Positions 39,972 through 57,524 of a DNA stretch of 64,000 nt are shown here, in pieces. The translations under genes were made by a program, and so were the position numbers. The DNA comes from Kiritimatiellia bacterium (GTDB lineage: Bacteria; Verrucomicrobiota; Kiritimatiellia; RFP12; UBA1067): assembly GCA_045540275.1 (NCBI GenBank), contig JAZQGX010000235.1:7610-71609 (forward strand), written 5' to 3'. A model generated the notes under the pieces. It had not been told where the DNA came from. It made no database searches and saw nothing but the letters and a program-made list of their open reading frames with translations. The first letter of the stretch is position 1. Each line of letters opens with the position of its first letter.

Positions 39972-41438
39972 CTAAATTTCAAGAACTGGTGTATCAAGGC
40001 TGGCTATTTCACGATCAAAAAGCTGAAGCTGATTTGAAAAACTGTCGGGTAAATCAGAGACCCCTGCTCGTTTTAAATCCGCACCGAAATTGAGAATTGA
40101 ATTGAGAACATCGCGAACGCGTAGTGAAGATGCATCACCGCAAAGCACATAATTGCCATCTGAATCGTCATCAACTTTAAGAAGGATGCCGACATTTACA
40201 AGTTCATTGATAATTCTCGAACAGATGCTGCGGGGTATGGCGTTGTCAGTAGCGAATCTGGATACTGACAGAGGATGAGGGGCTGCATCCGTTGCCGATT
40301 TTGCCGCCGCTGAAACTAGCATCAGGGATAATGTTAGCCGAGAACGGACACTGAGCATCTCAGCAATTGACGAATAGAAAAAGAGGTTGCAATATTGTGC
40401 GGCGAAGGCAATTTCAGCTCCGACAAGCACTATTTTCCAACTCATAAAAAGCCATGCGAGCAGGATGGGAAGAGTAGCAAAGCCACCGTACAAAGTACTG
40501 AACTGAGCAATTCCAATTTGCAGCATTGTACATAGTTTCAACCACAGTGTTGCCAATACAGCGGTGACCAGACCTCCAATAACGGCAGCTTTGGCACGCA
40601 CCTTGGTATTCGGCATAAATCCGATAAGAAACGAAAAGAAAATCCAACCGAACAGAATGACCGTGGCGATCTTGACTATGGGGTTGTTGCTGAAAAAGTC
40701 GAGAATGACGGATCCTTTTTCGCCCGCTATTTTGGAAATTACGCCCGAAAGCGCTGACACCACCGGAATGGTTGATGCGGCCAGGCAAAGAAACGGGAGA
40801 ATAATAATGGCAAAGAGATAGTCGGCCGCCTTTCGAACCAAAGGTCGGCCGGAGCGCACATTCCAAACCTCATTAAAACTGGTCTCGACCTTATCCAACG
40901 TTCCGATAACCGTCCAAAGCAACATCACAGCGCCGATACCACCAAGCGTTCCAAAATTGATATTATCGAGTTGGGAGAGCAATTCATCGGCCATTTTTCG
41001 CATTTTCGAGGAAATTGCCGATGCTGACACCGTTTGAGGTGGGAGTTGGTTGGTTTTGGATTGTGTGAGGGCAATTGCGTTTTGCATTGCATTTTCATCT
41101 GACGGGAGAGTGTTGCCTGACTCGAGTTCAGCGGTCCAGGTTTCTACCACTGCATAAATTTTTTCCTTTGCCAGTTCGCCGCCGCCAAATGCGCGGGCCA
41201 AGGCTAAGGTCATTGCCAATACGGGGATAAGTGCCATTAGCGAAAAAAACGTCAAGGAGGCGGCATGAAGATTGCAGCGATTAGATTTTAGGCGCGAACA
41301 GACCAAAGAAAGAAAACGCAATGCTCTTATAGTCAACCTATGGATTCGACCTAATTCTTCGGTATGGAGCTGCCAAAGTTCGTATTTGATGAAACGAATC
41401 AAACCTGACAATCCTGTCAATTTATTCTGTTTGTTCAT
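39972..41438 (-). CDS. YihY/BrkB family membrane protein with C-terminal HTH-like extension
   Basis: AASLTFFSLMALIP, ETSFNEVW, LYGGFATLPILLAWLF...GAEI. Confidence 0.87.
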   Translation of the reverse strand: MNKQNKLTGLSGLIRFIKYELWQLHTEELGRIHRLTIRALRFLSLVCSRLKSNRCNLHAASLTFFSLMALIPVLAMTLALARAFGGGELAKEKIYAVVETWTAELESGNTLPSDENAMQNAIALTQSKTNQLPPQTVSASAISSKMRKMADELLSQLDNINFGTLGGIGAVMLLWTVIGTLDKVETSFNEVWNVRSGRPLVRKAADYLFAIIILPFLCLAASTIPVVSALSGVISKIAGEKGSVILDFFSNNPIVKIATVILFGWIFFSFLIGFMPNTKVRAKAAVIGGLVTAVLATLWLKLCTMLQIGIAQFSTLYGGFATLPILLAWLFMSWKIVLVGAEIAFAAQYCNLFFYSSIAEMLSVRSRLTLSLMLVSAAAKSATDAAPHPLSVSRFATDNAIPRSICSRIINELVNVGILLKVDDDSDGNYVLCGDASSLRVRDVLNSILNFGADLKRAGVSDLPDSFSNQLQLFDREIASLDTPVLEI

Positions 41439-41455
41439 TTATCATCTATCCTTAT

Positions 41456-42157
41456 CTAACGAATTTTAGAAAGCACTCTGATTGCAACGGGGCGGACTAC
41501 GCAAGAAAGTTGACATGCTCCGCAACCGACACACAACTTTTCATCCACCAGCAACTGATTTTGTGGCCACTCCGTGGATTCCACCAGACTCAACGCATTA
41601 ACGGGGCAATGGTCAATGCATATTCCGCAACGGCGTTGCGACTCCAAACAAAGCGTTACATCAACATTGGCAACTGCTGCAATTGCTGGTTTCGACATTC
41701 CGGATTTTAGAACCGGGATGGCGCCCGTTGGACAGACGATCATACATTTCTTGCAATCGGTATTACAGAATTTATCGATAAAATTCAACTGTGGTGCAAG
41801 CCATTTTTTTCCACCTTCAGAACTTAGTTCGATTATATGCTCAGGGCAAGCAGTGATACAAGCTCCGCATCGAATGCATTTTCTAAGAAAATCCCCTTCA
41901 CTTACCACCCCCGGCGGGCGGATTGCCCGATTAGGGCCTGTCCCCTCCGGATTAGGGCCTGTCCCCTCCGAATATTTCTCCGTATGCGTGTCATCGTCTT
42001 TATTAGGGTCTGTCCCCTCTTCCCGAACGTTACGTTTAGGGTCTGTCCCCACATGGGGATCATTTAACGCAGAAGAATGCGCGGCACCTAGACAAAGCAA
42101 CAAGACACCGATGAATCGGCGTCTTGTCGTCTGTTGGCATGTAGCGGTTCGCTTCAT
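41456..42157 (-). CDS. NapG/MauM-like 4Fe-4S ferredoxin with Tat-like signal and in-frame REP repeats
   Basis: TRRRF signal; IRPPG; [12 protein letters not shown] plus three more Cys clusters; ATG 42157 overlaps purL stop. Confidence 0.82.
41929..42050 (+). repeat. Four REP-like motifs inside the ferredoxin CDS
   Basis: TAGGGCCTGTCCCC at 41932 and 41953 (within a perfect 21-bp tandem, 41929-41970); TAGGGTCTGTCCCC at 42004 and 42037. Confidence 0.92.
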
Positions 42158-46200: not shown

Positions 46201-46962
46201 TCAACAGCGGAAATGAGCTTCTATTTCAGACGCAAACACGGATAAGTCATCATAGGTTGATTCAGAATAGATATCGAAGTCGGTGGGCTGAGCATTGACG
46301 ATAAACAGCTTACCACCGCTTTTAAGCGTCAAATCAGGAAGACCTGCTGCGGGGAAAACGCGCAACGAGGTGCCTAAAACAAGTAGGATATCAGCTCTGG
46401 ATGCTAGCACTATCGCGGATCGATAGGCTTGCTCCGGCAGTGCTTCTCCGAAGAAGGTGTTATCAGGCTTGAATATGCCTCCACATTCGCATTGCGGAAT
46501 ATATTTTTCGCCAAGGGCCTCAATACCTCCGTTAGCGTCGATAAGTTGCAAAATGCGATCAAAATCGATTGATCTTGCGCATTTTCGGCAGCTGTGAACG
46601 ATTGGAGAACCATGGATTTCGCAAACATCATTTGATCCTGCCCGTTGGTGGAGCATATCAATATTTTGCGTTATTATTCCTTTTAGGATTCCGACATCCT
46701 GTAAAACTTTCAATGCTTTATGCACTGGGCCTGGCGTAAAAGCGTGGAGATTGTATACGAGCTTCTTCGCTGCCCGATAATAAATGGACGGGTCACGGTC
46801 AAACCACGCAATGTCAAAAATCCGTTCTGCGTCAACATTGGAACTGGAATAAAGGCCACCGGCACCTCTGAAATCGGGAATACCGCACAAGGTACTGATG
46901 CCGGCACCGGTCAGGGCTACGGCATGGGAAGAAGTGGCAAGCGCATTAATTAGACTTTTCAA
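46201..46962 (-). CDS. cobB: NAD-dependent protein deacylase (sirtuin)
   Basis: TGAGISTLCGIPDFRG, TQNIDMLH, IHGS, CxxC...CxC, FGE, GTSL, VN. Confidence 0.93.
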   Translation of the reverse strand: MKSLINALATSSHAVALTGAGISTLCGIPDFRGAGGLYSSSNVDAERIFDIAWFDRDPSIYYRAAKKLVYNLHAFTPGPVHKALKVLQDVGILKGIITQNIDMLHQRAGSNDVCEIHGSPIVHSCRKCARSIDFDRILQLIDANGGIEALGEKYIPQCECGGIFKPDNTFFGEALPEQAYRSAIVLASRADILLVLGTSLRVFPAAGLPDLTLKSGGKLFIVNAQPTDFDIYSESTYDDLSVFASEIEAHFRC

Positions 46963-46983
46963 CGATATTTTCCTTTAATGAAG

Positions 46984-48372
46984 TCATTTTATAAACTTGC
47001 CGGTGTCACGATTGTATTCGAAGGAACCGCCCTCCCAGGTCATTTTCCCATTTACGCAATCGTCTATTACGGTATATGAATTTGTTTTTTTCCAACACCC
47101 ATTTTCTTTAATCAAAACATCAACGGCATCACATGGGCGATTTCCTCGCACTTTTGCGATGATGCTTTTGCCGGGGATGGTAAGTTCAAATCCGCTGCCG
47201 TCTTCGAGCATTTTGACTACAAATGAGACTTTTGCATGTCCGTCATACATTGGGATAATCGCTCCCGGATAATAGTCGATTGAGCGGTCCCAAACATCCA
47301 TCACGTAACTCATATCCTGGTAGCAATTACCGGTAATCCTGCCGGTTTTGGCATCCATATAGAAATGATTAACTTGGTTACCGTCACGTGCATTGACACA
47401 AATGTGAAAATGTGCAGGAAAATCGGTGTGTCCGTTGGCAAAATTCGACTCAAAACCGCCTATCCAAATTTTTCCGTCTTTAATGGTCCCGGCTTCACCG
47501 AAGCCGAGTCGTTCGAACGCTTCGCGAAGTGCAAAGACGAAATTGATTACCGCTTTAATTTCGTTTTCGGGGTATGGCACCTTACGGTGAGGTCCGGCTT
47601 GCATCCCCTTCATGTTGTGAGAGAGCGACCAGGTGATATCGCCGAGAGCGGGGAAGGTGGTATCAAAATGGGTTGGTGTTTTTTTGGCGGAGGGGATAAA
47701 CGAAGAGGAAGTGGCGTTAATTACGATATTGCTGGCACCGTACACGGCTCGGATTCCAGCATGAGGCCATGATGCCTTGATAAGTGGGGCCGGGTGGTTA
47801 AAACCATCGCGTTCAAAGGTCAGATACGCCTCACGTATGTTGACGCCGGAATATTTTTCACCTTCGACGAGTCGCCATCCGTCAGGTATGCTGAGTTTTG
47901 GCATCGGGTCATCACCCAAACGCTGTTTCATTATCTTGACCGCATAGCGAGTAACATCACCTTGATATGCATTTACAAATATAGTCCAATTGGTGGGCGC
48001 GGAATATTCATATTCGATACCTCCGTTATTTTTGCGATACCACTTGAATTTTATGGTACCATCTTCTCCTAGCGACTCCTCCCATTCGTCGCCGGATTTG
48101 TCGGTTTTGCGGAGTGAAAGGCAAACCAGCTTGCTGTTACGGTTGAATTTGTAAACTCCACGTGAATCGGGCTTTCCGCGTACGCGTTTGCTAAAATTGT
48201 GCCCTTCTTGTTCTAGAGCATGATACCAAGCCAATTTATCTTCTGGTCTACGTGATATTTGAAATTTTTCTCCTAACTCTTTTGAGCTAGGAGTACGGCA
48301 GCCAGCAAAAATGCATACAGCCATCAGAATGATTTTGGGGACAGACCCTTTAAAACATATCACCAAGCTCAT
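46984..48372 (-). CDS. Hypothetical lipoprotein
   Basis: 462-aa ORF with GGAG RBS; lipobox FAGC; GHTDFPAHFH motif. Confidence 0.65.
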   Translation of the reverse strand: MSLVICFKGSVPKIILMAVCIFAGCRTPSSKELGEKFQISRRPEDKLAWYHALEQEGHNFSKRVRGKPDSRGVYKFNRNSKLVCLSLRKTDKSGDEWEESLGEDGTIKFKWYRKNNGGIEYEYSAPTNWTIFVNAYQGDVTRYAVKIMKQRLGDDPMPKLSIPDGWRLVEGEKYSGVNIREAYLTFERDGFNHPAPLIKASWPHAGIRAVYGASNIVINATSSSFIPSAKKTPTHFDTTFPALGDITWSLSHNMKGMQAGPHRKVPYPENEIKAVINFVFALREAFERLGFGEAGTIKDGKIWIGGFESNFANGHTDFPAHFHICVNARDGNQVNHFYMDAKTGRITGNCYQDMSYVMDVWDRSIDYYPGAIIPMYDGHAKVSFVVKMLEDGSGFELTIPGKSIIAKVRGNRPCDAVDVLIKENGCWKKTNSYTVIDDCVNGKMTWEGGSFEYNRDTGKFIK

Positions 48373-48421
48373 TTGATTTCTCCATTTCTTTTAATGATTT
48401 TGGGGGCAGCCCCTTTAAAAC
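48328..48421 (-). repeat. Two 29-bp direct repeats carrying the REP-like core, 3' of the transposase
   Basis: AATGATTTTGGGGACAGACCCTTTAAAAC (48328-48356) and AATGATTTTGGGGGCAGCCCCTTTAAAAC (48393-48421), 27/29 identical. Confidence 0.9.
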
Positions 48422-48433
48422 TTACATTTCTTT

Positions 48434-49279
48434 TTAAGCGGATCGTTGGCCATGAGTTGCATAAACCACACATGGTCCAAGCATGTAAGAAACTATTTTA
48501 TGCAGCTTACGTTTAAAGCAACTGGAATTGAGATTGATGGCGTTTTTCACAAATTCGAGGCTTCCGATGACGCCCCCATTTTCAAAGCGCCGATTTCGTA
48601 CCAAATATAATCTTTGATCACTTTCATAGCGATATCCTAATACTAATAGTGACAGACCCTTGGCGGCAAAAATATCTCCGTTTCTTGCAGCTCCTAGCGC
48701 ACTCCATTCATATTCTTCTGGAGTTTTAACCATTTGCGCTCGAACAGGATTGCTGTGAATGTAGCCAATAACATTTTTTAAATTGTCTCCATCTTCGATT
48801 AGAGCACTTTTAAATCTTCCTGCCCACAACGTGCCTTCATGGTTGCTATAGCGATTATACCATTGCGAAAAACGCTGCTTTAAGGTTTTCATAAATTCGC
48901 TTAAATCGCCCATTCTAGCTCGCATTTTATTTATCATTGATTCCGCACACTCCATATCATTCGCATTTTTATAGTCATTAAGTCGATTAACAAATGCATT
49001 TTTGTAGTTTTCTCCGTATAAAACCGCAACTCTTCGAATAACCTCGGCTTCTGACACGATATTTTTATTTTCCGGCACTCGTATGCACAAATGAAAATGA
49101 TTATCCATTATGACATAAGTAGCGACATCCACTCCGCTGAATTCTGCAGCGCGGTGCAAAATATTAAGTAGGACTCGCTTAGCCTTGTCATCAACTAGCA
49201 AAAATGCCTTATTAGCTATCCTGCTAACAACATGATAATAAGCCGTCTTAGTGGCCTTGACTCTGTTTGTTCTAGACAT
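48434..49279 (-). mobile_element. REP-associated tyrosine transposase (RAYT, Y1 HUH family)
   Basis: YYHVVSR, IMDNHFH (HUH), LWAGRFKS, YIHSNPVRA, WSA; AT-rich; flanked by inverted REP-like motifs. Confidence 0.88.
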
Positions 49280-49409: not shown

Positions 49410-50363
49410 TTAGGGTCTGTCCCCAATTGTTCCGGCCAAAATCTGTAGCAAAGCATCTTTTAGCTGATTTACTCGGCGCTCCCTATTAGAAGTACGATAA
49501 CCTTTAATGCAGATCAATCGTCCGCCATAATCATTGCCATCGTCCCAGACGGGCGCACCGTCTGTGGTGATAACACGTTTGCCGCGCTCCAGCGCTTCTG
49601 CAACCACTAACCCAAAATTCTCGCTCAACGTCGGCAACACCAGCACATCACACCAATCCCAAGCCTCTTCTTTTTCCGCTTCGCTCACCACCCCGCAGAA
49701 CTTCACATTCAATTCATGCTCCTTCGCCATCTGCCGAAGTTTACCCCCCTCTCCCTCATCCTTGCCAATGACTTTCAGTTCCAATCTCTGCGTCTCTGCA
49801 CCTCTGCGTCTCTGCGTTAAAAAACATCTCATCGCTTCAAGCAAAAATTCCACGCCCTTCAAAGGATGCAACCTGCCGATAAAAAGCAACCGCAAAGGAT
49901 TGTGCACACTCTTCAGCGGCATATCCAACGCTCCGTCCCCAAGCGAGAGCATCTCAACCGTTTTGACCTTCAGCTCAAACTTCCGCACCCACTCGACTTC
50001 ATCATCGCAAGTCGCCACAACCCGATCTGCTCTCCCGAAAAGCCAGCGCTCAATTGGCGTCACCCACATTTTTTTCCACCAGCGATGCCGCCGTTTAACC
50101 GGATCCATGCAACCATGCGGCATTCGAACAAGCGTTTTCTTAAGCCGCAATGCCGTCCATGCCGCCCTCATCACACCCGGCGTCCACATGGAATGCACCC
50201 ACACCTCATCTGCAGCAGCAATCTGCCGTTGTGTCCACGCCTTGAAATCGACACACTCTACACTCTTCCCGCTCGCGATCTGCCGCCGTGCCACCATTTT
50301 CGCCGCAACTGCGATTCCGCACGTCGGATCATCAAGCCCCGGAACTATATGAAGTATTTTCAT
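49410..50363 (-). CDS. Glycosyltransferase family 4
   Basis: MKILHIV, FIGRLHPLKG, ENFGLVVAEAL. Confidence 0.9.
   Translation of the reverse strand: MKILHIVPGLDDPTCGIAVAAKMVARRQIASGKSVECVDFKAWTQRQIAAADEVWVHSMWTPGVMRAAWTALRLKKTLVRMPHGCMDPVKRRHRWWKKMWVTPIERWLFGRADRVVATCDDEVEWVRKFELKVKTVEMLSLGDGALDMPLKSVHNPLRLLFIGRLHPLKGVEFLLEAMRCFLTQRRRGAETQRLELKVIGKDEGEGGKLRQMAKEHELNVKFCGVVSEAEKEEAWDWCDVLVLPTLSENFGLVVAEALERGKRVITTDGAPVWDDGNDYGGRLICIKGYRTSNRERRVNQLKDALLQILAGTIGDRP
49411..49424 (+). repeat. REP-like motif 5' of the transposase
   Basis: TAGGGTCTGTCCCC, inverted relative to 48337-48349; encodes the last codons (GDRP*) of the GT gene. Confidence 0.9.
49786..49824 (+). repeat. 4x CTCTGCNN 8-mer array plus TAAAAAA, in frame in the GT4
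   Basis: CTCTGCGT-CTCTGCAC-CTCTGCGT-CTCTGCGT-TAAAAAA, translating as FLTQRRRGAETQR. Confidence 0.9.
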
Positions 50364-51190
50364 CGGAAAAAATTATAACCAATTAATCCAATCCACTCGT
50401 GAACTGCGATTGAATTTTTAAGTAATGCCTCAGCATTAGGCATAAAATCATAAAGCCCTAAAGATCGGTACCTCATAATCGAATACTCAAAATCAGCCGG
50501 TGCGCAAACTACTTCCACGTCAGGCGCATACTTTTCAAACATCAACCTCGCGCGCTTCATGTGCCATGCACTCGTCACTAGCAATATTTTCGATTTTGAG
50601 GCGGAATGATCTTTGATTGGATTGGCACACGATTCGTTTTTAACGACTTCCCCACCCATCGACTTGCCCGAACGTAATAACTGTTTTCGAACCACCTTGG
50701 CTTCTTCCTCGGTATTTCTTGCCTCTAAAAACACCACTTTCTTCTCTTCCACTCCGAAATCCATCAAAACACCGAGCGTGCTATCTTTAGGATTAAAACC
50801 GGTTGAAATAATTATTGGTGCCTTTCCTGCCTTCCAAAGTCGTGCAGCCTGCCAAACCCTATCGGCATTTGACGACATCTCACCATATGGACTTAATTCA
50901 ACATTTCTTCCCATCCCGCCGCCGAGCAAAACTATTGCATCAGCCTTTGAGAAATTCTCTACTGACGGCACCCGGCCATCAACAAGAAATTCACTTTCCA
51001 ACGGGATGCCAAATAGAACCCTCATTATCGGCATTGAAAATAAAACAAGGCATACAACACTGCTGAATACAAAAAACAAACCGAGACGTAACCGTCCCTT
51101 CCAGACAGAATAAAAACCAATTGATAACGCTATTAATATCAACATCAATGGACTTGATAAAAAACCCACAAATTTATTTAAATAATACAT
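50360..51190 (-). CDS. YdcF/ElyC (DUF218) family protein
   Basis: N-terminal TMs; IVLLGGG, ISTG, EARNTEEEA, LVTSAWHMKRA, HEWIG. Confidence 0.88.
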   Translation of the reverse strand: MYYLNKFVGFLSSPLMLILIALSIGFYSVWKGRLRLGLFFVFSSVVCLVLFSMPIMRVLFGIPLESEFLVDGRVPSVENFSKADAIVLLGGGMGRNVELSPYGEMSSNADRVWQAARLWKAGKAPIIISTGFNPKDSTLGVLMDFGVEEKKVVFLEARNTEEEAKVVRKQLLRSGKSMGGEVVKNESCANPIKDHSASKSKILLVTSAWHMKRARLMFEKYAPDVEVVCAPADFEYSIMRYRSLGLYDFMPNAEALLKNSIAVHEWIGLIGYNFFR

Positions 51191-51378
51191 TATTCTCCCT
51201 TTACGAAGTGATTAATTTAAGTCTCATCTCTTGTAAAATTGACAATCAATAAACAATCATATGATTCAATGTTCGGATTTCATAAATAAGCATTGAAAAA
51301 AATTAAAATAAAAGCGCCTTGTGTTTCAATAGTCAATTTTTCTAATACTAGATATGGTCAATTCATTTTCTAAAATAA

Positions 51379-52734
51379 TTACCTCTTGTTGCGTTTGTAT
51401 AATGTGTAAATGCCAGTTTTTGATGCTGCGTGATAATACATTGGAATTGATTTACTAGCCCAGGACATATCAAGAAGAGCATTTTTGTCAAATGTACCAG
51501 CAGGGACAATAATATATTCACTTTTGCCACATTTAATATCATTAAGCATACAATCTCTATACGCAGAAGATGCAACTGATATGGTTCCTTGAAATGGGAA
51601 TCGTGTTGGAGTTTGCGCATTTAGATAAAGATATACTAAGCAATCGCATCCCATAACAGTTACCGAATTAAAGTCTGTAATTTTAGATTTTAATTCGTTC
51701 ATGGCCAATATCTTATCATCGTTATTGTGACACAGATTACGTTGCATTATCGCGATTATTAAAATTGATACTGCCACCGTAGTAGCAATGTGACGTAGCA
51801 ATTTATTCAGCTTGCAGTACAGAAGAGACAAAGGCAAAATGCATGCAGGTAAAATTGGACCATAGTATCTAAAAGTGCCCCCTGATAAAATCACCATCGC
51901 CCAAGCAATAAAAAAATACATCAAATTAAGTTGTATAATCGATTTAAGCTTTTTAGAACCATCGTAAAAAAAATATTGATAAACCGCAACAAAAAATATA
52001 AATGCAACAATAAAAAATCCGCGATTTATTTCTGGTAGCAAATTCAAACTCCCAGAATATATTTTATTATAAACTATATATACCTCCCAGAATGAATACA
52101 AGGCATCATTCACCCAAAAATATAACATAATAGGCGCAAAAACGAGCATAAAACCAATTATAAGGCCTATTAAAGCTTTAGTTTTATTTTGTCGCCATAA
52201 CCAACACAACCCAATGGGACAAGCAACTGTAATCATATTCAGTTTTAGCATGAAAATTGCACCTACGCATAAACCCATAACGATGCAATCTAACATAGAC
52301 CAAGCATTCTCTTGTATACAAATCAGATATGAAATTAAAGCAAACACAATTATATACATTTCTGGCATGTTCCCACCGCATGCTAATAGGTGATAAATAG
52401 CAGAGATAGGAAAGATTACACTAATCGCTATATCCGCACTAACATACCTACGCGCCAATTTATAAGTAAGATACATTGCTAAGAGAAATATAAAGCTATC
52501 TAAAATAAAGATTCCCAAAAATGATGTTGGTGAAATCAGCCACCCCAATGCATCTATAAAATATATTAATGGGCCTTTATGATCAAAAACATGTAGATAT
52601 GGGACTAATCCATTGTTTAACATGCGGGCAACATACAAAAAAATTGAACTGTCCGTCCCTGCAGTATTTAAATAAGGATTAGAAAGAAATCCGAAACAGG
52701 CAAAAACCAAAAGAAAATAAATAAAAATACGCAT
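51379..52734 (-). CDS. Polytopic GT-C (ArnT/PMT-like) membrane glycosyltransferase
   Basis: TDSSIF, PYLHVFDHKGPLIY, many TMs; very AT-rich. Confidence 0.72.
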   Translation of the reverse strand: MRIFIYFLLVFACFGFLSNPYLNTAGTDSSIFLYVARMLNNGLVPYLHVFDHKGPLIYFIDALGWLISPTSFLGIFILDSFIFLLAMYLTYKLARRYVSADIAISVIFPISAIYHLLACGGNMPEMYIIVFALISYLICIQENAWSMLDCIVMGLCVGAIFMLKLNMITVACPIGLCWLWRQNKTKALIGLIIGFMLVFAPIMLYFWVNDALYSFWEVYIVYNKIYSGSLNLLPEINRGFFIVAFIFFVAVYQYFFYDGSKKLKSIIQLNLMYFFIAWAMVILSGGTFRYYGPILPACILPLSLLYCKLNKLLRHIATTVAVSILIIAIMQRNLCHNNDDKILAMNELKSKITDFNSVTVMGCDCLVYLYLNAQTPTRFPFQGTISVASSAYRDCMLNDIKCGKSEYIIVPAGTFDKNALLDMSWASKSIPMYYHAASKTGIYTLYKRNKR

Positions 52735-52740
52735 AACAAA

Positions 52741-53988
52741 TCAAACATTAAGCCTAATGGTGTCTGGAACTAGCGGATCAAAGACTTCATTTGCCCACAT
52801 AACCGTCACCATGTCCGTATCGCCTACATTGACAATGTTGTGCGTGTAACCTGGCGGAATGCGCACGATTTCCAGCTTCTCCCCACTCACCTTGTAGGAG
52901 ATTATAGGCGCATTAGGATTATCCGCCATGCGAAAATTGATTTCCCCCTTGCCGCTCACAACAAGGAACTTCTCATGCTTCGTGTGATGCCAATGCTGCC
53001 CCTTGGTTATCCCGGGCTTCGAAACGTTCACGCTCACCTGCCCGCGCTCGGCGGAATGAAGCACCTCGGTGAAGCTACCGCGATTATCGCAATGCATTGT
53101 GAGCGGATAGCTAAATTTATCTTCCGGCAGCGCGGCAAGGTAGGTTGAGTAGAGTTTCTTGGTGAAACCATCCATCTGATCCGGCACCATCAGCGTATTC
53201 GGCTCATCATGAAAACTCTTTATCAGATCCACTATCTCCCCCAAAGTCTTCGTGTAGGAAGGCGACACGGAGAAAATAGTGCTGTTTTTTAACGCAGAGT
53301 GGCAGAGTGGCAGAGTGACAGAGCCTATATATTCCCTCTGCTTCCCCGCTTCTCCGCTACTCTGCGTTAAACCATCCCCACAATCCTGTCCGGAACCTAA
53401 AACGCGCAACCCGAAACCCTCATCCAACTTACAACTCTCAACTTTCCCAACAAAACTCCTCACCACATCATCAATATACACCAGTGTCACCGTCGCTTCA
53501 GTATCTCTTACCATAATCGGCAGATCCCGTGCGATATTGTAAACCCAAGTCGCAACAGCACTGTTGTAATTCGGCCTACACCATTTGCCGAACACATTAG
53601 CGAGTCTATACACATACACCGGCGCGCCGGTCTTCTCGCCATACGCCGTTACAGCGTCCTCAGCAGCCTTCTTGCTCTTACCGTAATCGTTATCAAGAGC
53701 GGCTTGAATGCTCGAACTTAAGAGTACCGGCGGCGGATTGCTCCTTGCCGCCAACTTCTCAAGAATATCCTCAGTGAAAACAGCATTCCCAGTCTGGAAC
53801 TCTGCCGGATCCTTCGGACGGTTCACTCCGGCCAAGTGCATCACGAAATCGCATTCAGCAATATAGGCGTCAAGTTTCGCCTCATCGCCGAGGTCGTATT
53901 TCAGCACCTCAATATCAGGCATCTGTTCCAGCGTCAGGCACAAATTCCGCCCGACAAACCCCTTTGCCCCTGTTACGAGTATTTTCAT
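52741..53988 (-). CDS. wbjC: UDP-2-acetamido-2,6-dideoxy-beta-L-lyxo-4-hexulose reductase (FnlB/CapF/WbjC) with repeat-derived insertion
   Basis: TGAKGFVG, HLAGVNRP, SSSIQA, YGKSK, FGKWCRPNYNS; C-terminal cupin DNRGSF, KGQHWHHTK, PPGYTH. Confidence 0.92.
   Translation of the reverse strand: MKILVTGAKGFVGRNLCLTLEQMPDIEVLKYDLGDEAKLDAYIAECDFVMHLAGVNRPKDPAEFQTGNAVFTEDILEKLAARSNPPPVLLSSSIQAALDNDYGKSKKAAEDAVTAYGEKTGAPVYVYRLANVFGKWCRPNYNSAVATWVYNIARDLPIMVRDTEATVTLVYIDDVVRSFVGKVESCKLDEGFGLRVLGSGQDCGDGLTQSSGEAGKQREYIGSVTLPLCHSALKNSTIFSVSPSYTKTLGEIVDLIKSFHDEPNTLMVPDQMDGFTKKLYSTYLAALPEDKFSYPLTMHCDNRGSFTEVLHSAERGQVSVNVSKPGITKGQHWHHTKHEKFLVVSGKGEINFRMADNPNAPIISYKVSGEKLEIVRIPPGYTHNIVNVGDTDMVTVMWANEVFDPLVPDTIRLNV
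53285..53446. repeat. Composite repeat insert inside wbjC: 8-mer-arm palindrome plus 9-mer and 7-mer units
   Basis: Left arm TTTTTTAACGCAGAG-TGGCAGAG-TGGCAGAG-TGACAGAG (53285-53323); 12-nt spacer; right arm CTCTGCTT-CCCCGCTT-CTCCGCTA-CTCTGCGT-TAAA (53336-53371); AATCCTGTCC at 53382; AACTTAC-AACTCTC-AACTTTC at 53426-53446. Confidence 0.88.
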
Positions 53989-54004
53989 AGTTTTTATCGT
54001 TTTG

Positions 54005-54061
54005 GACATGATTAACAAGATTTACAAGATTCATAATCCCGTTAATCCTGTAAATCCTGTC
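54005..54061. repeat. Palindrome built of 3+3 9-mer tandem units
   Basis: GACATGATT-AACAAGATT-TACAAGATT-cat-AATCCCGTT-AATCCTGTA-AATCCTGTC between wbjD and wbjC. Confidence 0.9.
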
Positions 54062-55190
54062 AAAAAGTCTCACCCCAAACCCGGCGTTTGATGTAATCAG
54101 TATAAGAGATTATTATGCGGACGACCTTCTCGCTTACATCGGGCATGGAATAGTCATACACCTTCCGGCAGGGCTTCGCGACATCCAGATGCTTAAGCGC
54201 CTGAAGAATGCGCTCCTTGTTCTGCCCGACCATCATCACCGCCGCCTCTTCCATCGCTTCCGGACGCTCATGCGCCTCACGCAGATTAAGCGCCTTGAAA
54301 CCAAGAATGCTCGACTCCTCGCTGATCGTTCCTGAATCGCTCAAGACCGCCTTTGCGTTCAGCTGCAGCGCCAGATACTCCGTAAGTCCCATCGGCTTCA
54401 TGAGCTTTACGAGCTTATCGAACTTGACTCCTTTCGTTTCAATCATCTTGCGCGTACGCGGATGTGTCGAAACGATGATTGGGAGCTTATATGCCGCTGC
54501 AATCTCATTTAGACATTCCACCAGATTCAAAAAGTGGCGTTCATCGGCAATGTTCTCTTCGCGATGCGCACTCACCACAAAATACTTGCCTTTGACTACC
54601 TTCATCGCCTTTAGAACCTTCGCCGCATTGCGCTTCACTTTCGGCATTTGCTCGGTGAGAACCTCCAGCATCGGCGAACCAGTCTTGATGACCTGATCTG
54701 GGGGCAGACCTTCCTTCAAAAGATATTCACGCGCAATGCTCGAATAGCACAAATTGATGTCGCTGATGTGGTCGACAATCTTGCGGTTCGTTTCTTCCGG
54801 GACACGCTGATCGAAGCAGCGGTTTCCCGCCTCCATGTGGAATACCGGGATATGACGCTTCTTCGCCGCGATTGCACAAAGACAGCTGTTCGTATCGCCA
54901 AGTACCAGAAATGCTTCCGGCTTCGTCTCTTCAAGAACTGGGTCGATCGCTTCAAGAATCTTCCCGGCCGTCACCGTGGCATTGCCACCAGCGGCGTTAA
55001 GGAAGTAGTCGGGCTTCCTTAGACCAAGATCTTTGAAGAATACCTCGTTCAGTTCGTAGTCGTAGTTCTGTCCAGTATGCACAAGCACATGCTCAACGGC
55101 TGGACTCGCATCGAGTTTCTTCATCACACACGCAAGCCTGATTATCTCAGGCCGCGTACCGACAACTGTCATCACTTTCAACTTTTTCAT
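54060..55190 (-). CDS. wbjD: UDP-N-acetylhexosamine 2-epimerase (FnlC/CapG/WbjD)
   Basis: VVGTRPEIIR, HTGQNYD, LGDTNS, HMEAGNR, PEETNR, SDSGT, ERPEA. Confidence 0.93.
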   Translation of the reverse strand: MKKLKVMTVVGTRPEIIRLACVMKKLDASPAVEHVLVHTGQNYDYELNEVFFKDLGLRKPDYFLNAAGGNATVTAGKILEAIDPVLEETKPEAFLVLGDTNSCLCAIAAKKRHIPVFHMEAGNRCFDQRVPEETNRKIVDHISDINLCYSSIAREYLLKEGLPPDQVIKTGSPMLEVLTEQMPKVKRNAAKVLKAMKVVKGKYFVVSAHREENIADERHFLNLVECLNEIAAAYKLPIIVSTHPRTRKMIETKGVKFDKLVKLMKPMGLTEYLALQLNAKAVLSDSGTISEESSILGFKALNLREAHERPEAMEEAAVMMVGQNKERILQALKHLDVAKPCRKVYDYSMPDVSEKVVRIIISYTDYIKRRVWGETF

Positions 55191-55196
55191 AAAATC

Positions 55197-55269
55197 AATC
55201 CTTTTGATCTTAGTAATCCTGTAAATCTTGTTAATCCTGTCCACTCGGAACTTACAACTTACAACTCTC
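55197..55269 (+). repeat. 9-mer array followed by 7-mer array at a gene junction
   Basis: AATCCTTTT-GATCTTAGT-AATCCTGTA-AATCTTGTT-AATCCTGTC (55197-55241); AACTTAC-AACTTAC-AACTCTC (55249-55269). Confidence 0.85.
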
Positions 55270-55654
55270 TCCTGAAATCATCATTTTCAAATTCCCCGAC
55301 CTTACAATCGGAGAATACCATAACTTCAGCATTTCCATCCTGCACAATCTTGAACCAATTTCCCGGCGACACTTTTAAAACGCATGGTCTCTCTGCATCA
55401 AGCACAAACTCCTCTGCACCTCTGCTACTCTGCAACTCTGCGTTAAAACTCTCAATGACAATAACCGTCCTTCCGCTCAACGGGAAAAACCACTTCGTCT
55501 CTTTCTTATGCCCGATCCATCCCCGCACCGGCTGTTCTGCGCTGTTGGAGATGGTGTAGAACCGCTTCACTGCCGACATATCAAAGTCGTTGCAGAACCG
55601 CAATGCACCACGCACATCTGTATGCAGCCCACCTTGTATCAACATTGGATTCAT
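55259..55654 (-). CDS. WxcM/RmlC-like cupin (sugar epimerase/isomerase)
   Basis: GGLHTDVRGAL, VKRFY, RGWIGHKKETKWF, PGNW. Confidence 0.8.
   Translation of the reverse strand: MNPMLIQGGLHTDVRGALRFCNDFDMSAVKRFYTISNSAEQPVRGWIGHKKETKWFFPLSGRTVIVIESFNAELQSSRGAEEFVLDAERPCVLKVSPGNWFKIVQDGNAEVMVFSDCKVGEFENDDFRREL
55412..55448 (+). repeat. 4x CTCTGCNN 8-mer array in frame in the cupin
   Basis: CTCTGCAC-CTCTGCTA-CTCTGCAA-CTCTGCGT-TAAAA, translating as FNAELQSSRGAE. Confidence 0.9.
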
Positions 55655-55661
55655 AGTTTTA

Positions 55662-55836
55662 TTTTTAACGCGGAGTGGCAGAGAAATTAAGAACTGACGG
55701 ACTCTTCATGTCCCATGCAAACTTTAACCAATATCTATCAATATTAAAACCTCTGCTACTCCGCACCTCCGCTACTCTGCGTTAAAAAATCCCACCCCAA
55801 AAAAACTCTGCCTCTCCGTACCTGTGTGTTTAAAAA
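55662..55836. repeat. Intergenic 8-mer-arm palindrome plus an extra degenerate arm
   Basis: TTTTTAACGCGGAG-TGGCAGAG (55662-55683) ... CTCTGCTA-CTCCGCAC-CTCCGCTA-CTCTGCGT-TAAAAAA (55751-55789); degenerate arm at 55806-55836. Confidence 0.85.
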
Positions 55837-55879
55837 CACACAGTTCATAACAATTCTACGTCCTTTCCCCACGCGGTTG

Positions 55880-57205
55880 CTACATATCTTCAATTGATAA
55901 CCCTGACAAATTCATCGCCATACCGCTCTTTTCGGGATGCTTCTTGAAGAACGCTATTGTTTTTTCCCGCAGTCGCGCCTCGTCATAACGTTCACCTGAA
56001 AGTTTCACTTCATAAAAATCCAATACCCCCTCAAACTCATTTTCGCACACCAAATCTATTTCATTCTCACCCTTACGATCCCACCAACTGCCGATTCGCG
56101 TATATCGTCCCTCCTCGAAAAACTTCGCCTTGAAATATTGCTCAAGAGCCCGCCCGGCAAAAACATCAAAATCGCGTTCAATAATTTTCTGGAATTGCAC
56201 CATCTGCCTCTGCTCGACAAGGTGTAGATACTTATAGACAAATCTAAACCAAAATCTGAAAAAGCAATCATTTATTCCATAAAGACAATTTCTGGTCGTA
56301 ACCTGCTCATAAATTGGATGCGTCTTTGAAATATAACCATATGAAGACTCAAGCTTTGTCAAATGTCCTCCAATTTCAGTTCCAATAATATTTCTAATTT
56401 CAGCGAATGACGTCTTACCCGCCGCGATAGAGGTTAATATTGAAAAATATGTACCATAATCCTTTCCAAACTCATCACTTAAAATGACGCGTCCTTCGTC
56501 AATATACGATGAACTTGGCGAACATACATACTTAATCATATCTGCTTTAGTAAACGACTTAGCGTCCATCAGCAATTCCACATAGCGCGCAACACCTCCA
56601 CTAAGTGTCCAAAGAGCCAATAAATCCCGGTTGACAACGCATCCCGCACATTCCTCAAGCACCTGCTTCATGACTTTCACAGGGAAAGGTTCTATATGCA
56701 ACTTCGCGGTATTCCTGCCGTAAAGGGGTTGGGAATCGTCAAAAAAGATTTTCGTCATCAATCTATTTACGCTACCGCAAACAACCAAATTAAGGCGGCT
56801 CTTCTTATGATAGCGATCCCAAACAGACTGTATCTCTCCAAAAATCCCAGAATTTATCCTATCAAATTCCTGAAATTCATCAATCACAAGTGTCAACGGT
56901 TTTGTAACGGAATAAGCCATTATAATCTCAAACAGTTGACCAAATCGCTCCGCGTTACCTAATATGGGCTGATCAATAACCTTTTGAATCTCCTCTTGAA
57001 AAATTGAACACAAATCTTTTTCTGTACGGCGAGAAACAAAAAGATACAAATAAGATCCTACACCATCATTAAGCGCCTTGTCAACAAGCTCTGTTTTCCC
57101 AATACGCCGCCGCCCCGTCACAACAGTAAATTGCGACGTTTCGCGCGAAATCTCAAGAATGCGCTTAAGTTCCGCGATTTCTATATCTCTGCCATAAAAT
57201 TTCAT
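55880..57205 (-). CDS. AAA/archaeal-type ATPase with C-terminal DUF234 PD-(D/E)xK-like domain
   Basis: FYGRDIE, GRRRIGKT, IDEFQE, CGS, GGVARY, DCFFRFWFRF, WWDRKGENEIDLV...YEVK. Confidence 0.88.
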   Translation of the reverse strand: MKFYGRDIEIAELKRILEISRETSQFTVVTGRRRIGKTELVDKALNDGVGSYLYLFVSRRTEKDLCSIFQEEIQKVIDQPILGNAERFGQLFEIIMAYSVTKPLTLVIDEFQEFDRINSGIFGEIQSVWDRYHKKSRLNLVVCGSVNRLMTKIFFDDSQPLYGRNTAKLHIEPFPVKVMKQVLEECAGCVVNRDLLALWTLSGGVARYVELLMDAKSFTKADMIKYVCSPSSSYIDEGRVILSDEFGKDYGTYFSILTSIAAGKTSFAEIRNIIGTEIGGHLTKLESSYGYISKTHPIYEQVTTRNCLYGINDCFFRFWFRFVYKYLHLVEQRQMVQFQKIIERDFDVFAGRALEQYFKAKFFEEGRYTRIGSWWDRKGENEIDLVCENEFEGVLDFYEVKLSGERYDEARLREKTIAFFKKHPEKSGMAMNLSGLSIEDM

Positions 57206-57219
57206 ATTCGCCCCCCTTA

Positions 57220-57290
57220 TTCACAAACACTCGTTTGCCAAACATGTGTTTGTGAAGAGGTATTATATCACCATTCTATTTACACCGCAA
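57220..57290 (-). promoter_or_regulatory. Promoter (TTGCGG-17-TATAAT, TGn extended) with a downstream 37-bp inverted repeat
   Basis: Reverse complement of 57285-57290 is TTGCGG and of 57262-57267 is TATAAT; IR TTCACAAACAC...GTGTTTGTGAA at 57220-57256. Confidence 0.65.
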
Positions 57291-57482
57291 TGACCATTCC
57301 ATCAATAGTAAAATGACATATCAATCTTATCTTGTATACTTTCAGCCGCAAAAAAGGACGCATAGGGCGTGTAGTTTTTAGCCGTGTAAAACGTGGAGAA
57401 ACGTGGAGATTTTGTAATATGCTTGGGTATTGCCACACCTTTAATCATCCTTTCTTCGCCCTTAAACTTCCACTATCACATC

Positions 57483-57524
57483 CTCTGTTTCTCTGCCACT
57501 CTGCTACTCTGCGTAAAAAAAAAA
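57483..57524 (+). repeat. 4x 8-mer array immediately 3' of wbjB
   Basis: CTCTGTTT-CTCTGCCA-CTCTGCTA-CTCTGCGT-A10. Confidence 0.88.

What the first reader, a model, noticed from the sequence alone, without database searches (positions are those of the whole stretch)
49786..57524. Dispersed system of 7-, 8- and 9-mer tandem-arm palindromes confined to the polysaccharide locus
Seen: three unit families, 8-mer CTCTGCNN (49786, 53285/53336, 55412, 55662/55751/55806, 57483), 9-mer AATCCTGTN (53382, 54005-54061, 55197-55241) and 7-mer AACTTAC (53426, 55249). They occur mostly as arms of 3-5 units, often as inverted pairs forming long imperfect hairpins. Intact 8-mer arms end in GCGT(T)AAA, so paired elements read TTAAC...GTTAA, loosely like integron attC R''/R' boxes (GTTAAAC at 53366 fits GTTRRRY). 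They mark every junction from wbjB to wbjC, and I saw no such arrays in the first 49 kb. From recollection, similar arrays flank GxxExxY and four-helix-bundle genes in other glycan loci, but I know of no described mechanism. Inference: recombination sites of a cassette-shuffling system that diversifies surface-glycan loci, possibly ssDNA-hairpin based; the adjacent HUH RAYT is one candidate catalyst.
Basis: partly seen in the sequence, partly recalled or inferred. Interest (0 to 1): 0.8.

Follow-up and report, generated by a model that had tools for sequence, protein, structure and literature searches.

The report
Hairpin repeat elements inside glycan genes
The short 8- and 9-base tandem arrays are real, but they are empty copies of a little-studied selfish hairpin cassette that is scattered over this gut bacterium's whole genome and its relatives, and here three copies sit in frame inside sugar-coat enzymes rather than forming a locus-specific recombination system.

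Summary
The arrays are real and far above chance: 12 triple 8-mers against 0.03 expected, all at 49786-57512. They are not confined to the glycan locus. The 9-mer family has 65 arms on 32 contigs of this genome, and both unit types recur across the taxonomic order.

Three arrays lie inside ORFs and are read in frame: a GT4 glycosyltransferase, the CapF/FnlB linker (about 43 extra residues, absent from 4 orthologues) and an FdtA-like cupin.

The same arms bracket small PD-(D/E)XK 'GxxExxY' genes in this genome and in relatives. Analogous arms bracket four-helix-bundle (23S-rRNA-IVS-protein) genes. I therefore read the window's copies as gene-less, MITE-like derivatives of IVS-like hairpin cassettes.

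Unit number differs between strains: 9 nt, 21 nt, and a 36-nt presence/absence.

The integron reading fails. There is no IntI, and 1 of 5 arm ends fits the R' box. The adjacent RAYT has its own different REP. How the elements move is unknown.

This scan has noted the same design before in other phyla.

The parts
49786..49821 (+). Solo 8-mer arm (4 units plus TAAA, 36 nt) inside the GT4 glycosyltransferase ORF, translated in frame on the - strand
   Evidence: In run X2 a contig joins 49773 to 49839 with 29 other letters between. That is 36 nt shorter than the window, the exact length of this arm.
49410..50363 (-). GT4 glycosyltransferase (317 aa) carrying the arm in a loop of its C-terminal domain
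   Evidence: Pfam Glycos_transf_1 and Glyco_trans_1_4 hits span residues 154-276. Translation without stops.
53282..53369 (.). 8-mer hairpin (two inverted arms, 12-nt loop) inside the CapF/FnlB ORF
   Evidence: RNA fold -45.4 kcal/mol on the - strand, z -8.45. Arrays.
53283..53446 (.). Composite in-frame insertion in the SDR-cupin linker of CapF/FnlB: the 8-mer hairpin, one 9-mer unit (53382) and 7-mer units (53424-53446). The stretch absent from orthologues is about 129 nt.
   Evidence: Query residues 196-252 have no counterpart in Cap5F (PDB 2zkl), which has 12 residues there. About 43 residues are absent from 4 orthologues. Strain X1 has 21 extra nt (3 x 7) at 53423.
52741..53990 (-). CapF/WbjC/FnlB-like bifunctional enzyme (SDR plus cupin domains), host of the composite insertion
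54001..54064 (.). 9-mer hairpin between the fnlC stop and the fnlB start. Its first bases supply the fnlC stop codon.
   Evidence: -23.2 kcal/mol on the - strand. Strain X1 lacks one 9-nt unit at 54015.
55197..55266 (+). Solo 9-mer arm (55215-55240) followed by a 7-mer AACTTAC array (55249-55266), between the cupin gene and fnlC
55412..55447 (+). Solo 8-mer arm inside the FdtA/WxcM-like cupin ORF (55259-55654, - strand), translated in frame
   Evidence: A weak alignment to the WxcM-like protein 4zu4 shows about 7 extra residues in a turn. Strain X1 has 132 nt in place of 66 nt at 55378-55445.
55659..55795 (.). 8-mer hairpin with a 65-nt loop (an empty cassette) between the ATPase gene and the cupin gene
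   Evidence: z -3.5 and -7.1.
55806..55860 (+). Degenerate 8-mer arm plus a small perfect palindrome after the ATPase stop
57483..57524 (+). Solo 8-mer arm directly after the fnlA stop codon
55880..57205 (-). AAA ATPase (ATPase_2/DUF234; PADLOC candidate PDC-S27) set between fnlA and the rest of the fnl genes and flanked by 8-mer arms in direct orientation. It is a neighbour, not shown to be cargo.
   Evidence: Similar AAA_14/DUF4143 genes on C123 and C249 are also flanked by arrays.
48434..49279 (-). RAYT (REP-associated tyrosine transposase), a separate repeat system. It is flanked by inverted GGGGACAGACCC-type motifs at 48337-48348, 48402-48413 and 49413-49424.
   Evidence: Pfam Y1_Tnp. NCBIfam NF047646 scores 80.3 bits against a cut-off of 80. 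Flanks. The motif has 23 copies in the genome and its reversed control has 0.
41401..41417 (+). Weak two-unit 9-mer arm outside the glycan locus

Best explanation
The arrays are solo arms and paired arms (hairpins) of small palindromic repeat elements. Each arm is 3-5 tandem 7-9-nt units.

They are gene-less derivatives of a hairpin cassette. Its full form is left arm, ribosome-binding site, a small gene, then the inverted right arm. The small gene is a PD-(D/E)XK 'GxxExxY' protein (TIGR04256). In sister cassettes with other units it is a four-helix-bundle, 23S-rRNA-IVS-type protein (TIGR02436). The relation resembles that of MITEs or REPINs to their autonomous parents.

Shown:
- the arms, their folding, and their genome-wide and order-wide spread;
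- identity of units and end motifs with arms that bracket GxxExxY genes;
- a decayed intermediate;
- in-frame residence in three enzymes, at a domain linker, a loop and a turn;
- whole-unit length changes between strains.

Inferred:
- Copies arise by duplication or insertion of arms at gene boundaries and at permissive coding sites.
- Only copies that keep the frame survive inside genes.
- Unit number then drifts by slippage.
- Spread probably uses the single-strand hairpin or a nuclease-made break repaired from another copy. That step is unproven.
- By analogy with rRNA intervening sequences, the transcribed stems may be RNase III substrates.
For: 1. Same arms around a gene.
- In this genome CTCTGCNN/CTCCGCNN arms bracket PDDEXK_3 genes at C59:690-1040 and C216:947-1294.
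- NCBIfam calls all 3 tested proteins GxxExxY (119-135 bits against a cut-off of 35) and all 4 tested four-helix-bundle proteins TIGR02436.
- In relatives, 9-mer arms bracket GxxExxY genes in G027 (L097/L136) and G031 (L105).
- 8-mer arms with the window's TTTTAAC...GTTAAAA ends bracket one in G005 (L142). Similar arms do so in G004 (L140) and G006 (L143).

2. Association beyond chance.
- The flanking inverted-repeat score is >=20 for 7 of 10 testable cassette genes, against 3 of 728 control ORFs.
- It is >=17 for 21 of 30 relatives' loci examined.

3. Arms and gene travel together.
- Arm type needs 17 changes on the protein tree, against a shuffled mean of 23.6. None of 200 shuffles is as low.
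- The 9-mer clade has support 100/96.

4. Decay series. G032 holds a C-terminal GxxExxY fragment of about 30 residues joined to a right 9-mer arm only.

5. Gene-less copies outnumber full ones. There are 45 9-mer loci with no gene-bearing copy, and 20 8-mer loci against 2.

6. Insertions.
- About 43 residues in CapF are absent from Cap5F and from 4 orthologues.
- At one site of the C217 protein the own genome has the 9-mer peptide, a congener has another repeat and G023 has none.
- X2 shows a 36-nt presence/absence.

7. The nuclease motif D...ExK is invariant or nearly so in 32 sequences. The AF2 model has pLDDT 94 and a PD-(D/E)XK-like fold.

8. Precedent. The Coxiella 23S IVS has a four-helix-bundle ORF, a 28-bp terminal stem, tandem heptamers whose number varies by strain, and RNase III excision (PMC4990558, passages read).
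Against: - Array counts across 41 genomes do not track GxxExxY gene counts (Spearman 0.09 and 0.13). They track Y1_Tnp counts weakly (0.31 and 0.35, p 0.05 and 0.02; relatives are not independent).
- Four array-rich genomes gave no PDDEXK_3 hit: G003 with 51 hits, G010, G017 and G023. G032, with 74 hits, has only a fragment. So a resident nuclease is not needed for the arrays to persist.
- In G024 the gene sits between two complete 9-mer hairpins, not in a loop.
- Arrays also flank unrelated accessory genes: AAA_14/DUF4143, ORF6N, KilA-N and LPD3.
- I saw no target-site duplication and no nucleotide-exact empty site. The X2 allele is one low-depth contig with diverged flanks.
- No movement was observed. 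Conservation of the units across an order could also reflect a host function.
- Arm types on the tree were assigned by eye.
Confidence: 0.7

Rival explanations
1. First reader's model. The arrays are integron-attC-like recombination sites of a cassette-shuffling system that diversifies the surface-glycan locus, with the neighbouring RAYT as recombinase.
For: - Arrays stand at 4 of 4 junctions from fnlA to fnlB.
- One arm end (53366) fits GTTRRRY.
- In several places single accessory genes lie between outward-facing arrays. These are the AAA ATPases in the window and on C123 and C249, ORF6N on C40, KilA-N on C63, and a GxxExxY gene between two hairpins in G024.
- fnl gene order differs from that of relatives.
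Against: - No integron integrase is found: the best hit is 75 bits against a cut-off of 265.
- Four of 5 arm ends do not fit the R' box.
- Arms occur in both orientations and inside ORFs.
- There is no enrichment near GT genes outside C235.
- The nearest strain contig is collinear across the arrays.
- The RAYT is flanked by a different palindrome.
Confidence: 0.07
2. The arrays are REP/REPIN-type elements mobilised in trans by a Y1 HUH transposase (RAYT). The small genes in some loops are passengers.
For: - A RAYT lies 500 nt from the first array.
- Array counts correlate weakly with Y1_Tnp counts (rho 0.31-0.35).
- 15 of 17 array-rich genomes have a Y1_Tnp hit.
- No TSD was seen, as expected for HUH enzymes.
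- The hairpin design suits ssDNA recognition.
Against: - All 3 Y1_Tnp genes of the genome carry their own, different flanking palindromes, which is the defining REP-RAYT anatomy. None has 8- or 9-mer arms.
- G038 has 13 Y1_Tnp hits and no arrays.
- G004 and G024 have arrays but no Y1_Tnp hit, although both are only about 65% complete.
- Arm type follows the GxxExxY tree.
Confidence: 0.1
3. The arrays are host-selected cis elements, not selfish DNA. They could be RNase III or other processing sites, mRNA stabilisers, or binding sites for a conserved protein.
For: - The units are conserved across an order: 20 of 41 and 32 of 41 genomes.
- All three hairpins in the window fold better on the mRNA-sense strand.
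- An RNA-library contig covers the CapF hairpin without a gap.
- The IVS precedent shows RNase III cleavage of such stems.
Against: - Genome-wide, the better-folding strand of the 9-mer hairpins is sense in 5 cases and antisense in 7.
- Positions are not conserved. Orthologous fnlB loci of 4 relatives lack arrays, and there is turnover at the C217 site.
- Copies sit inside enzymes, where a processing site would be harmful.
Confidence: 0.1
4. The arrays are plain slippage microsatellites. Inside the three glycan genes the 8-mers act as contingency (phase-variation) tracts, because one unit more or less shifts the frame.
For: - Unit-step differences exist between strains (9 nt and 21 nt).
- 8-nt units inside a GT4 gene, CapF and a cupin of a surface-glycan locus would switch the frame.
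Against: - No +/-8-nt variant appeared at the three coding arrays. Only contigs were laid, and contigs drop rare variants.
- Units are imperfect and few (4).
- Slippage alone explains neither the inverted pairing, nor the shared end motifs, nor dispersal of identical arms to over 30 contigs, nor the link to GxxExxY genes.
Confidence: 0.05

Closest known systems
23S rRNA intervening sequences (IVS) carrying an S23p/four-helix-bundle ORF, e.g. the Coxiella burnetii helix-45 IVS (PMC4990558; passages read)
   Same: A small ORF is enclosed by terminal inverted repeats that form a long stem. Tandem heptamer units lie next to the ORF and their number varies between strains. The element is regarded as selfish and horizontally spread. 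The same protein family (TIGR02436/PF05635) sits in array-armed cassettes in this genome.
   Different: - The window's copies lie in protein-coding operons and inside ORFs, not in rRNA.
- They carry no gene.
- The parent of the 8- and 9-mer arms carries a PD-(D/E)XK GxxExxY gene, not S23p.
- RNase III excision was not tested.
REP / REPIN / BIME elements with their RAYT (recalled from Bertels and Rainey 2011 and Messing et al. 2012; Di Nocera 2013 PMC3733652 was named in an earlier scan note and not read)
   Same: They are short imperfect palindromes, occur singly or as inverted doublets, are dispersed in many copies mostly between genes, and form mosaic clusters with other repeats.
   Different: - The arms are tandem arrays of units.
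- There is no GTAG head.
- The genome's RAYT genes are flanked by other palindromes.
- Copies occur inside ORFs.
Rickettsia palindromic elements, RPE (recalled: Ogata et al. 2000; only a search listing seen)
   Same: Palindromic repeats are inserted in frame in many unrelated protein genes and translated. Here these include GT4, CapF, the cupin and at least 10 further ORFs that read NPVNPVNPV or TGLTGL.
   Different: There is no sequence relation. These elements are much shorter (27-130 nt), their arms are periodic, and a gene-bearing parent is identified.
MITEs such as Correia/NEMIS and BOX (reviews PMC10969869, PMC2229807, PMC3184786; search listing only)
   Same: They are non-autonomous derivatives with terminal inverted repeats that far outnumber the gene-bearing form.
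   Different: No target-site duplication was seen. The parent encodes a PD-(D/E)XK nuclease-fold protein of unknown activity, not a DDE transposase.
Integron attC sites (features recalled)
   Same: They are imperfect palindromes at gene-cassette boundaries, and a single-strand hairpin is plausible.
   Different: There is no IntI, the core boxes do not fit, orientation is mixed, and in the full form the gene lies inside the hairpin loop.
Dispersed 7-nt tandem repeats: cyanobacterial STRR (recalled: Mazel 1990), GGGNATC repeats of Xanthomonas and Nostoc (PMC4692102, abstract read), TAACTGA repeats of Beggiatoaceae (PMC4679880, passages read)
   Same: Tandem 7-9-nt units are spread over the genome, mostly between co-directional genes, with variable unit number. 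Their function and origin are unknown.
   Different: Those papers describe direct arrays. MacGregor reports one inverted case. They draw no link to a bracketed gene. Here inverted pairing and the GxxExxY or four-helix-bundle cargo define the family.

Membership tests
Integron attC site | An integron integrase (IntI) in the genome or next to the array | tested here: not met
   TIGR02249 on the whole genome: the best hit is 75.3 bits against a cut-off of 265. All 12 hits are generic tyrosine recombinases on other contigs. The genome is 94% complete in 324 contigs.
Integron attC site | R'' (RYYYAAC) and R' (GTTRRRY) core boxes at the two ends (feature recalled) | tested here: not met
   Read. Of 5 arm ends, only 53366 (GTTAAAC) fits R'. 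The ends at 49815, 55441 and 55785 read GTTAAAA, and 57515 reads GCGTAAAA. No attC covariance model was available.
REP/REPIN-RAYT system | The RAYT gene is flanked by its cognate REPs in inverted orientation | tested here: not met
   The three Y1_Tnp genes (C235, C322, C300) are each flanked by a different palindrome, none by 8- or 9-mer arrays. This feature is met for the separate GGGGACAGACCC repeat.
REP/REPIN-RAYT system | Short imperfect palindromes, solo or as inverted doublets, dispersed mainly between genes | tested here: met
MITE | Terminal inverted repeats plus a target-site duplication | tested here: inconclusive
   Inverted ends are present. No direct duplication was visible at the 21 bracketed cassettes. 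The TTAA and T-run/A-run ends are themselves palindromic, so a TSD cannot be told apart from the repeat.
MITE | A longer element with the same ends that encodes a transposase | tested here: not met
   The longer form encodes a GxxExxY PD-(D/E)XK protein. No transposase activity is known for it, and PMC3424549 lists its function as unknown.
GxxExxY (TIGR04256) hairpin cassette, gene-less derivative | The same unit sequence and end motif as arms that bracket a GxxExxY gene | tested here: met
   8-mer: C59 and C216, L140, L142 and L143. 9-mer: L097/L136 and L105. Family calls.
GxxExxY (TIGR04256) hairpin cassette, gene-less derivative | Intermediates between the full and the empty forms | tested here: met
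   G032:C77 holds a gene fragment of about 30 residues plus the right arm only. PDDEXK_3 copies with internal stops occur at C235:78190, G005, G021 and G031.
GxxExxY (TIGR04256) hairpin cassette, gene-less derivative | Dependence of array spread on the encoded protein | tested here: inconclusive
   Counts are uncorrelated (rho 0.09-0.13), and 4 array-rich genomes have no gene hit.
23S rRNA IVS-type element | A terminal inverted stem enclosing a small S23p/four-helix-bundle ORF, with tandem short units | tested here: met
   Met by C164, C139, C236 and C244 in this genome. The window's own copies are gene-less.
23S rRNA IVS-type element | Location in 23S rRNA helix 25 or 45, and excision by RNase III | not tested
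   The window's copies are in mRNA-coding DNA. The rRNA genes of this MAG were not examined, and cleavage needs RNA end mapping.
RPE-like in-frame palindromic element | A dispersed palindromic repeat found inside ORFs in frame and absent from orthologues | tested here: met
Contingency-locus SSR | Unit-number heterogeneity that switches the reading frame | tested here: inconclusive
   Between-strain changes seen were 9 nt (non-coding), and 21 nt and 66 nt (coding, frame kept). No +/-8 nt change was seen, but only contigs were laid.

The most novel reading that the evidence does not exclude
The tandem-unit hairpins are the ends, or landing pads, of a general non-integron gene-cassette system found across bacteria.

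In this reading, a PD-(D/E)XK GxxExxY nuclease (and, in sister cassettes, an Avd-like four-helix-bundle protein) recognises its own periodic arms as a folded single strand. It drives copying of the cassette, or of its empty hairpin, into gene boundaries and permissive coding loops.

The same hairpins would then serve as entry points for other small accessory genes, such as AAA ATPase defence candidates, ORF6N and KilA-N. 23S rRNA intervening sequences would be only the first-noticed members of this class.
Probability: 0.15. Interest if true: 0.85.

Novelty: new variant of a known kind. Interest (0 to 1): 0.6.

Why it matters
- It connects three things that the literature I could search treats apart. 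These are dispersed 7-9-nt tandem repeats of unknown origin, the unexplained 'GxxExxY' and 'four helix bundle' genes that annotation pipelines find inside operons, and 23S rRNA intervening sequences. All three fit one element design with full and empty forms.
- It gives a concrete, testable candidate (a small PD-(D/E)XK protein with intact catalytic residues) for a mobility or maintenance mechanism.
- It shows that such elements can live in frame inside enzymes, as in Rickettsia.
- These repeats break assemblies. Sixteen of 22 8-mer arrays lie on contigs under 10 kb, which hold 28% of the genome. They also inflate ORF calls and add spurious low-complexity peptides to predicted proteins.

Tried and rejected
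- Transposase next to the near-identical 9-mer hairpins. The neighbour is thrS plus a mosaic of other short repeats, not an IS.
- RNA-level strand selection. There was no sense/antisense bias (5 against 7, with 7 undecidable).
- GT-gene proximity as a proxy for glycan loci. There was no enrichment outside C235. The proxy is crude, and 28% of the genome lies in contigs under 10 kb.
- Taxon naming. The Atlas search gave no taxa. The genome-contig scan with the RAYT found only distant relatives, the best at 42% identity in a Verrucomicrobiota MAG.
- Sequence search of the PDB with a GxxExxY protein gave 0 hits. The fold search gave only weak PD-(D/E)XK matches (E >= 1.8e-3, TM 0.43-0.51: Cas4, MGME1, Hjc), so no specific activity can be inferred.
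- PADLOC on the SIR2 and 462-aa genes beside the RAYT gave no hit.
- Joints that link 54066 to 57491 or 57527, 53324 to 55751, and similar. Their sides are under 40 letters and lie in repeats, so I read them as other genomic copies, not rearrangements.
Small shares of words are no evidence of habitat.
- Earlier-findings look-ups by place and by sequence returned nothing.
- Literature. Searches found no paper that ties GxxExxY or four-helix-bundle genes to tandem-unit inverted arms outside rRNA. Subscription journals and supplements were not searchable.

Full report
**Observation**

Tandem Repeats Finder lists 8-mer arrays at 49785-49817, 53294-53323, 53336-53362, 55412-55441 and 57491-57512. 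It lists 9-mer arrays at 54006-54060 and 55214-55240, and the 7-mer at 55249-55266 (sequence).

- A triple 8-mer pattern with up to three mismatches occurs 12 times in the 64-kb window, all between 49786 and 57512, against 0.03 expected from shuffles.
- A double 9-mer occurs 7 times against 0.07 expected. One of these is a weak copy at 41401, outside the locus.
- The inverted pairs fold into long stems with regular small mismatches, with z-scores from -3.5 to -8.5.
- Arrays sit at all four gene junctions between fnlA and fnlB.

The arrays are seen in independent assemblies of four public runs, so they are not an assembly artefact.

All genes here are on the minus strand.

- The GT4 glycosyltransferase (49410-50363) reads straight through the array at 49786.
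- The FdtA/WxcM-like cupin (55259-55654) reads through the array at 55412.
- The ORF 52741-54018 is a CapF/WbjC/FnlB-type enzyme with SDR and cupin domains. Its linker holds the 8-mer hairpin, a 9-mer unit and 7-mer units.
- Against the solved Cap5F structure sequence, query residues 196-252 face only 12 residues.
- Four orthologues from relatives, at 60-75% identity, lack about 43 residues at that point. Their loci have no such arrays.

**Genome-wide and order-wide picture**

The genome is a 3.63-Mb MAG of 324 contigs, and the window is C235:7610-71609. Counting arrays of three or more units gives the following:

| Family | Arrays | Contigs | Reversed-core control |
|---|---|---|---|
| 8-mer CTCTGC | 22 | 14 | 4 |
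| 9-mer AATCCTGT | 65 | 32 | 0 |
| 7-mer TTACCT | 47 | 17 | 1 |
| 8-mer CAGTTT | 35 | 17 | 3 |
| 8-mer AATCTCC | 26 | 16 | 0 |

- TRF shows still more unit families.
- Nineteen 9-mer pairs form hairpins with loops of 10-52 nt. About ten of them are near-identical copies.
- Five of the 20 8-mer loci lie on C235, so the local cluster is real. Outside C235, array loci are no closer to glycosyltransferase genes than chance.
- Among 41 genomes of the same order, the triple 9-mer is found in 20 and the triple 8-mer in 32. One genome has up to 212 hits, and controls are near zero.
- 'Confined to the polysaccharide locus' is therefore wrong.

**In-frame copies elsewhere**

With crude ORF calls, 9-mer arms lie deep inside long ORFs in at least ten proteins. 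They are translated as NPVNPVNPV, or from the other arm as TGLTGL or RINKIDRI. Three pairs of paralogues share the insert at the same site.

At one such site, in the C217 protein of 1132 aa, the own genome has the 9-mer peptide. A congener at 76% identity has a different repeat, another relative has nothing, and two more distant ones keep a whole domain there. These sites are permissive and turn over.

**What the arms belong to**

I tested that here.

- The genome has 5 PDDEXK_3 and 5 strong 23S_rRNA_IVP hits.
- Seven of the 10 testable ones have flanking inverted arrays scoring >=20, against 3 of 728 control small ORFs.
- Each four-helix-bundle cassette has its own unit. CTCTGCNN/CTCCGCNN arms bracket the PDDEXK_3 genes at C59 and C216.
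- NCBIfam names the proteins GxxExxY (3 of 3) and four helix bundle protein (4 of 4).
- In relatives, 9-mer arms with the same T-run and A-run ends bracket GxxExxY genes in G027 and G031.
- An 8-mer cassette in G005 has the window's TTTTAAC...GTTAAAA ends.
- Of the 30 relatives' loci examined, 21 have inverted arms scoring >=17. Twenty-nine of these loci were returned out of about 90 listed matches, and L105 was added. The units form a related purine-rich series.
- Arm type clusters on the protein tree: 17 changes against 23.6 in shuffles, with 0 of 200 shuffles as low. The labels were assigned by eye and no rows were dropped.
- The C59 protein is 94% identical to one in another genus.
- G032 holds a truncated gene with only the right arm.

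I conclude that the window's arrays are gene-less derivatives of these cassettes.

**The protein**

Thirty-two GxxExxY sequences keep G, G, E, Y and the D...E-x-K nuclease motif. The model is confident (pLDDT 94) and resembles PD-(D/E)XK nucleases only generally. Its function is listed as unknown in the superfamily survey PMC3424549.

**Strain variation**

A 5.6-kb contig of run X1 is collinear with 50694-55789 at about 97% identity. It differs by:

- +21 nt (three 7-mers) at 53423, inside CapF;
- -9 nt (one 9-mer) at 54015;
- 132 nt in place of 66 nt at the cupin array.

In X2, 29 letters replace 65 nt at the GT4 array. That is 36 nt fewer, the exact length of four units plus TAAA. A contig from an RNA library covers the CapF hairpin without a gap, which is weak evidence against removal at the RNA level. 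Only contigs were available, so rare variants cannot be seen.

**Rivals**

- Integron. There is no IntI, the boxes do not fit, and orientation is mixed.
- RAYT. The window's Y1 protein is a RAYT by NCBIfam, only just over the cut-off. It and the two other Y1 genes are each flanked by their own palindromes, here GGGGACAGACCC with 23 copies. Against my reading, array counts correlate weakly with Y1_Tnp counts and not with GxxExxY counts, and several array-rich genomes gave no GxxExxY hit.
- Host function. There is no strand bias relative to transcription and positions are not conserved.
- Slippage. It explains the length changes but not the dispersal, the pairing or the cargo.
- Some arrangements keep a cassette-site reading alive at low odds. 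A gene lies between two hairpins in G024, and arrays flank AAA ATPases, ORF6N and KilA-N genes.

**Known relatives**

The closest studied system is the 23S rRNA intervening sequence. The Coxiella IVS has a four-helix-bundle ORF, a 28-bp terminal stem, strain-variable tandem heptamers and RNase III excision (PMC4990558). Dispersed heptamer arrays have been described without any link to a bracketed gene (PMC4692102 abstract; PMC4679880 passages). In-frame palindromic repeats are known from Rickettsia (recalled). Four searches found no paper joining these threads. Supplements and subscription journals were out of reach.

**Verdict**

It is wrong on the integron and RAYT points. The mechanism of spread is open.

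Noticed in passing
window 48337-48348, 48402-48413, 49413-49424, with the RAYT gene at 48434-49279: The RAYT is bracketed by inverted GGGGACAGACCC-type motifs. The motif has 23 copies in the genome, and its reversed control has 0. The copy at 49413 supplies the last codons and the stop of the GT4 gene. This is a separate, classical REP-RAYT system. A tandem doublet of a related 21-mer lies at 41929-41970.
   Followed up: partly
window 55880-57205: The AAA ATPase (ATPase_2/DUF234) inserted among the fnl genes matches the PADLOC candidate defence family PDC-S27 (E 2.9e-42). Two similar AAA_14/DUF4143 genes elsewhere (C123, C249) are also flanked by tandem-unit arrays.
   Followed up: partly
genome contigs, not in the window (k-mer census): The most abundant repeat is a 26-mer with 56 copies, of unknown nature. 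A 30-mer with a palindromic core has 34 copies and looks like a CRISPR repeat (my recollection of type I-E-like repeats, not tested).
   Followed up: no
G000 contigs C316, C72, C153, C259, C228 and others: Upstream of thrS, and at about ten other places, several different hairpin families (9-mer, TTACCT 7-mer, CAGTTT 8-mer) stand side by side in mosaic clusters of 0.3-0.7 kb, like BIMEs. Many contigs end in them.
   Followed up: partly
window 54060-54064 and 57525; L097 1492-1500: The T-run and first bases of a hairpin often overlap or directly follow the stop codon of the upstream gene. Examples are the fnlC TGA inside the element, the arm right after the fnlA stop, and the G027 cassette right after a TAG.
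   Followed up: no
window 50360-52734: A low-G+C stretch holds a DUF218 gene and a 451-aa multi-pass membrane protein with a weak PMT_2 hit (possibly an O-antigen polymerase or ligase-like protein). It looks like a foreign insert in the glycan locus.
   Followed up: no
window 46201-48372: A SIR2-family gene and a 462-aa protein without any Pfam, NCBIfam or PADLOC hit lie between purL and the RAYT.
   Followed up: partly
L153 (C310:4494-7415) and L156 (G003): A further repeat family with units like CTACACGNN is translated as STRSTRLKN-type peptides. It occurs next to 9-mer inserts in a methyltransferase-like protein and at the C217 site of a congener.
   Followed up: no
G032: One relative has 31 Y1_Tnp hits, together with 74 8-mer array hits and no intact GxxExxY gene. 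It is worth a look as a test case for the RAYT rival.
   Followed up: no
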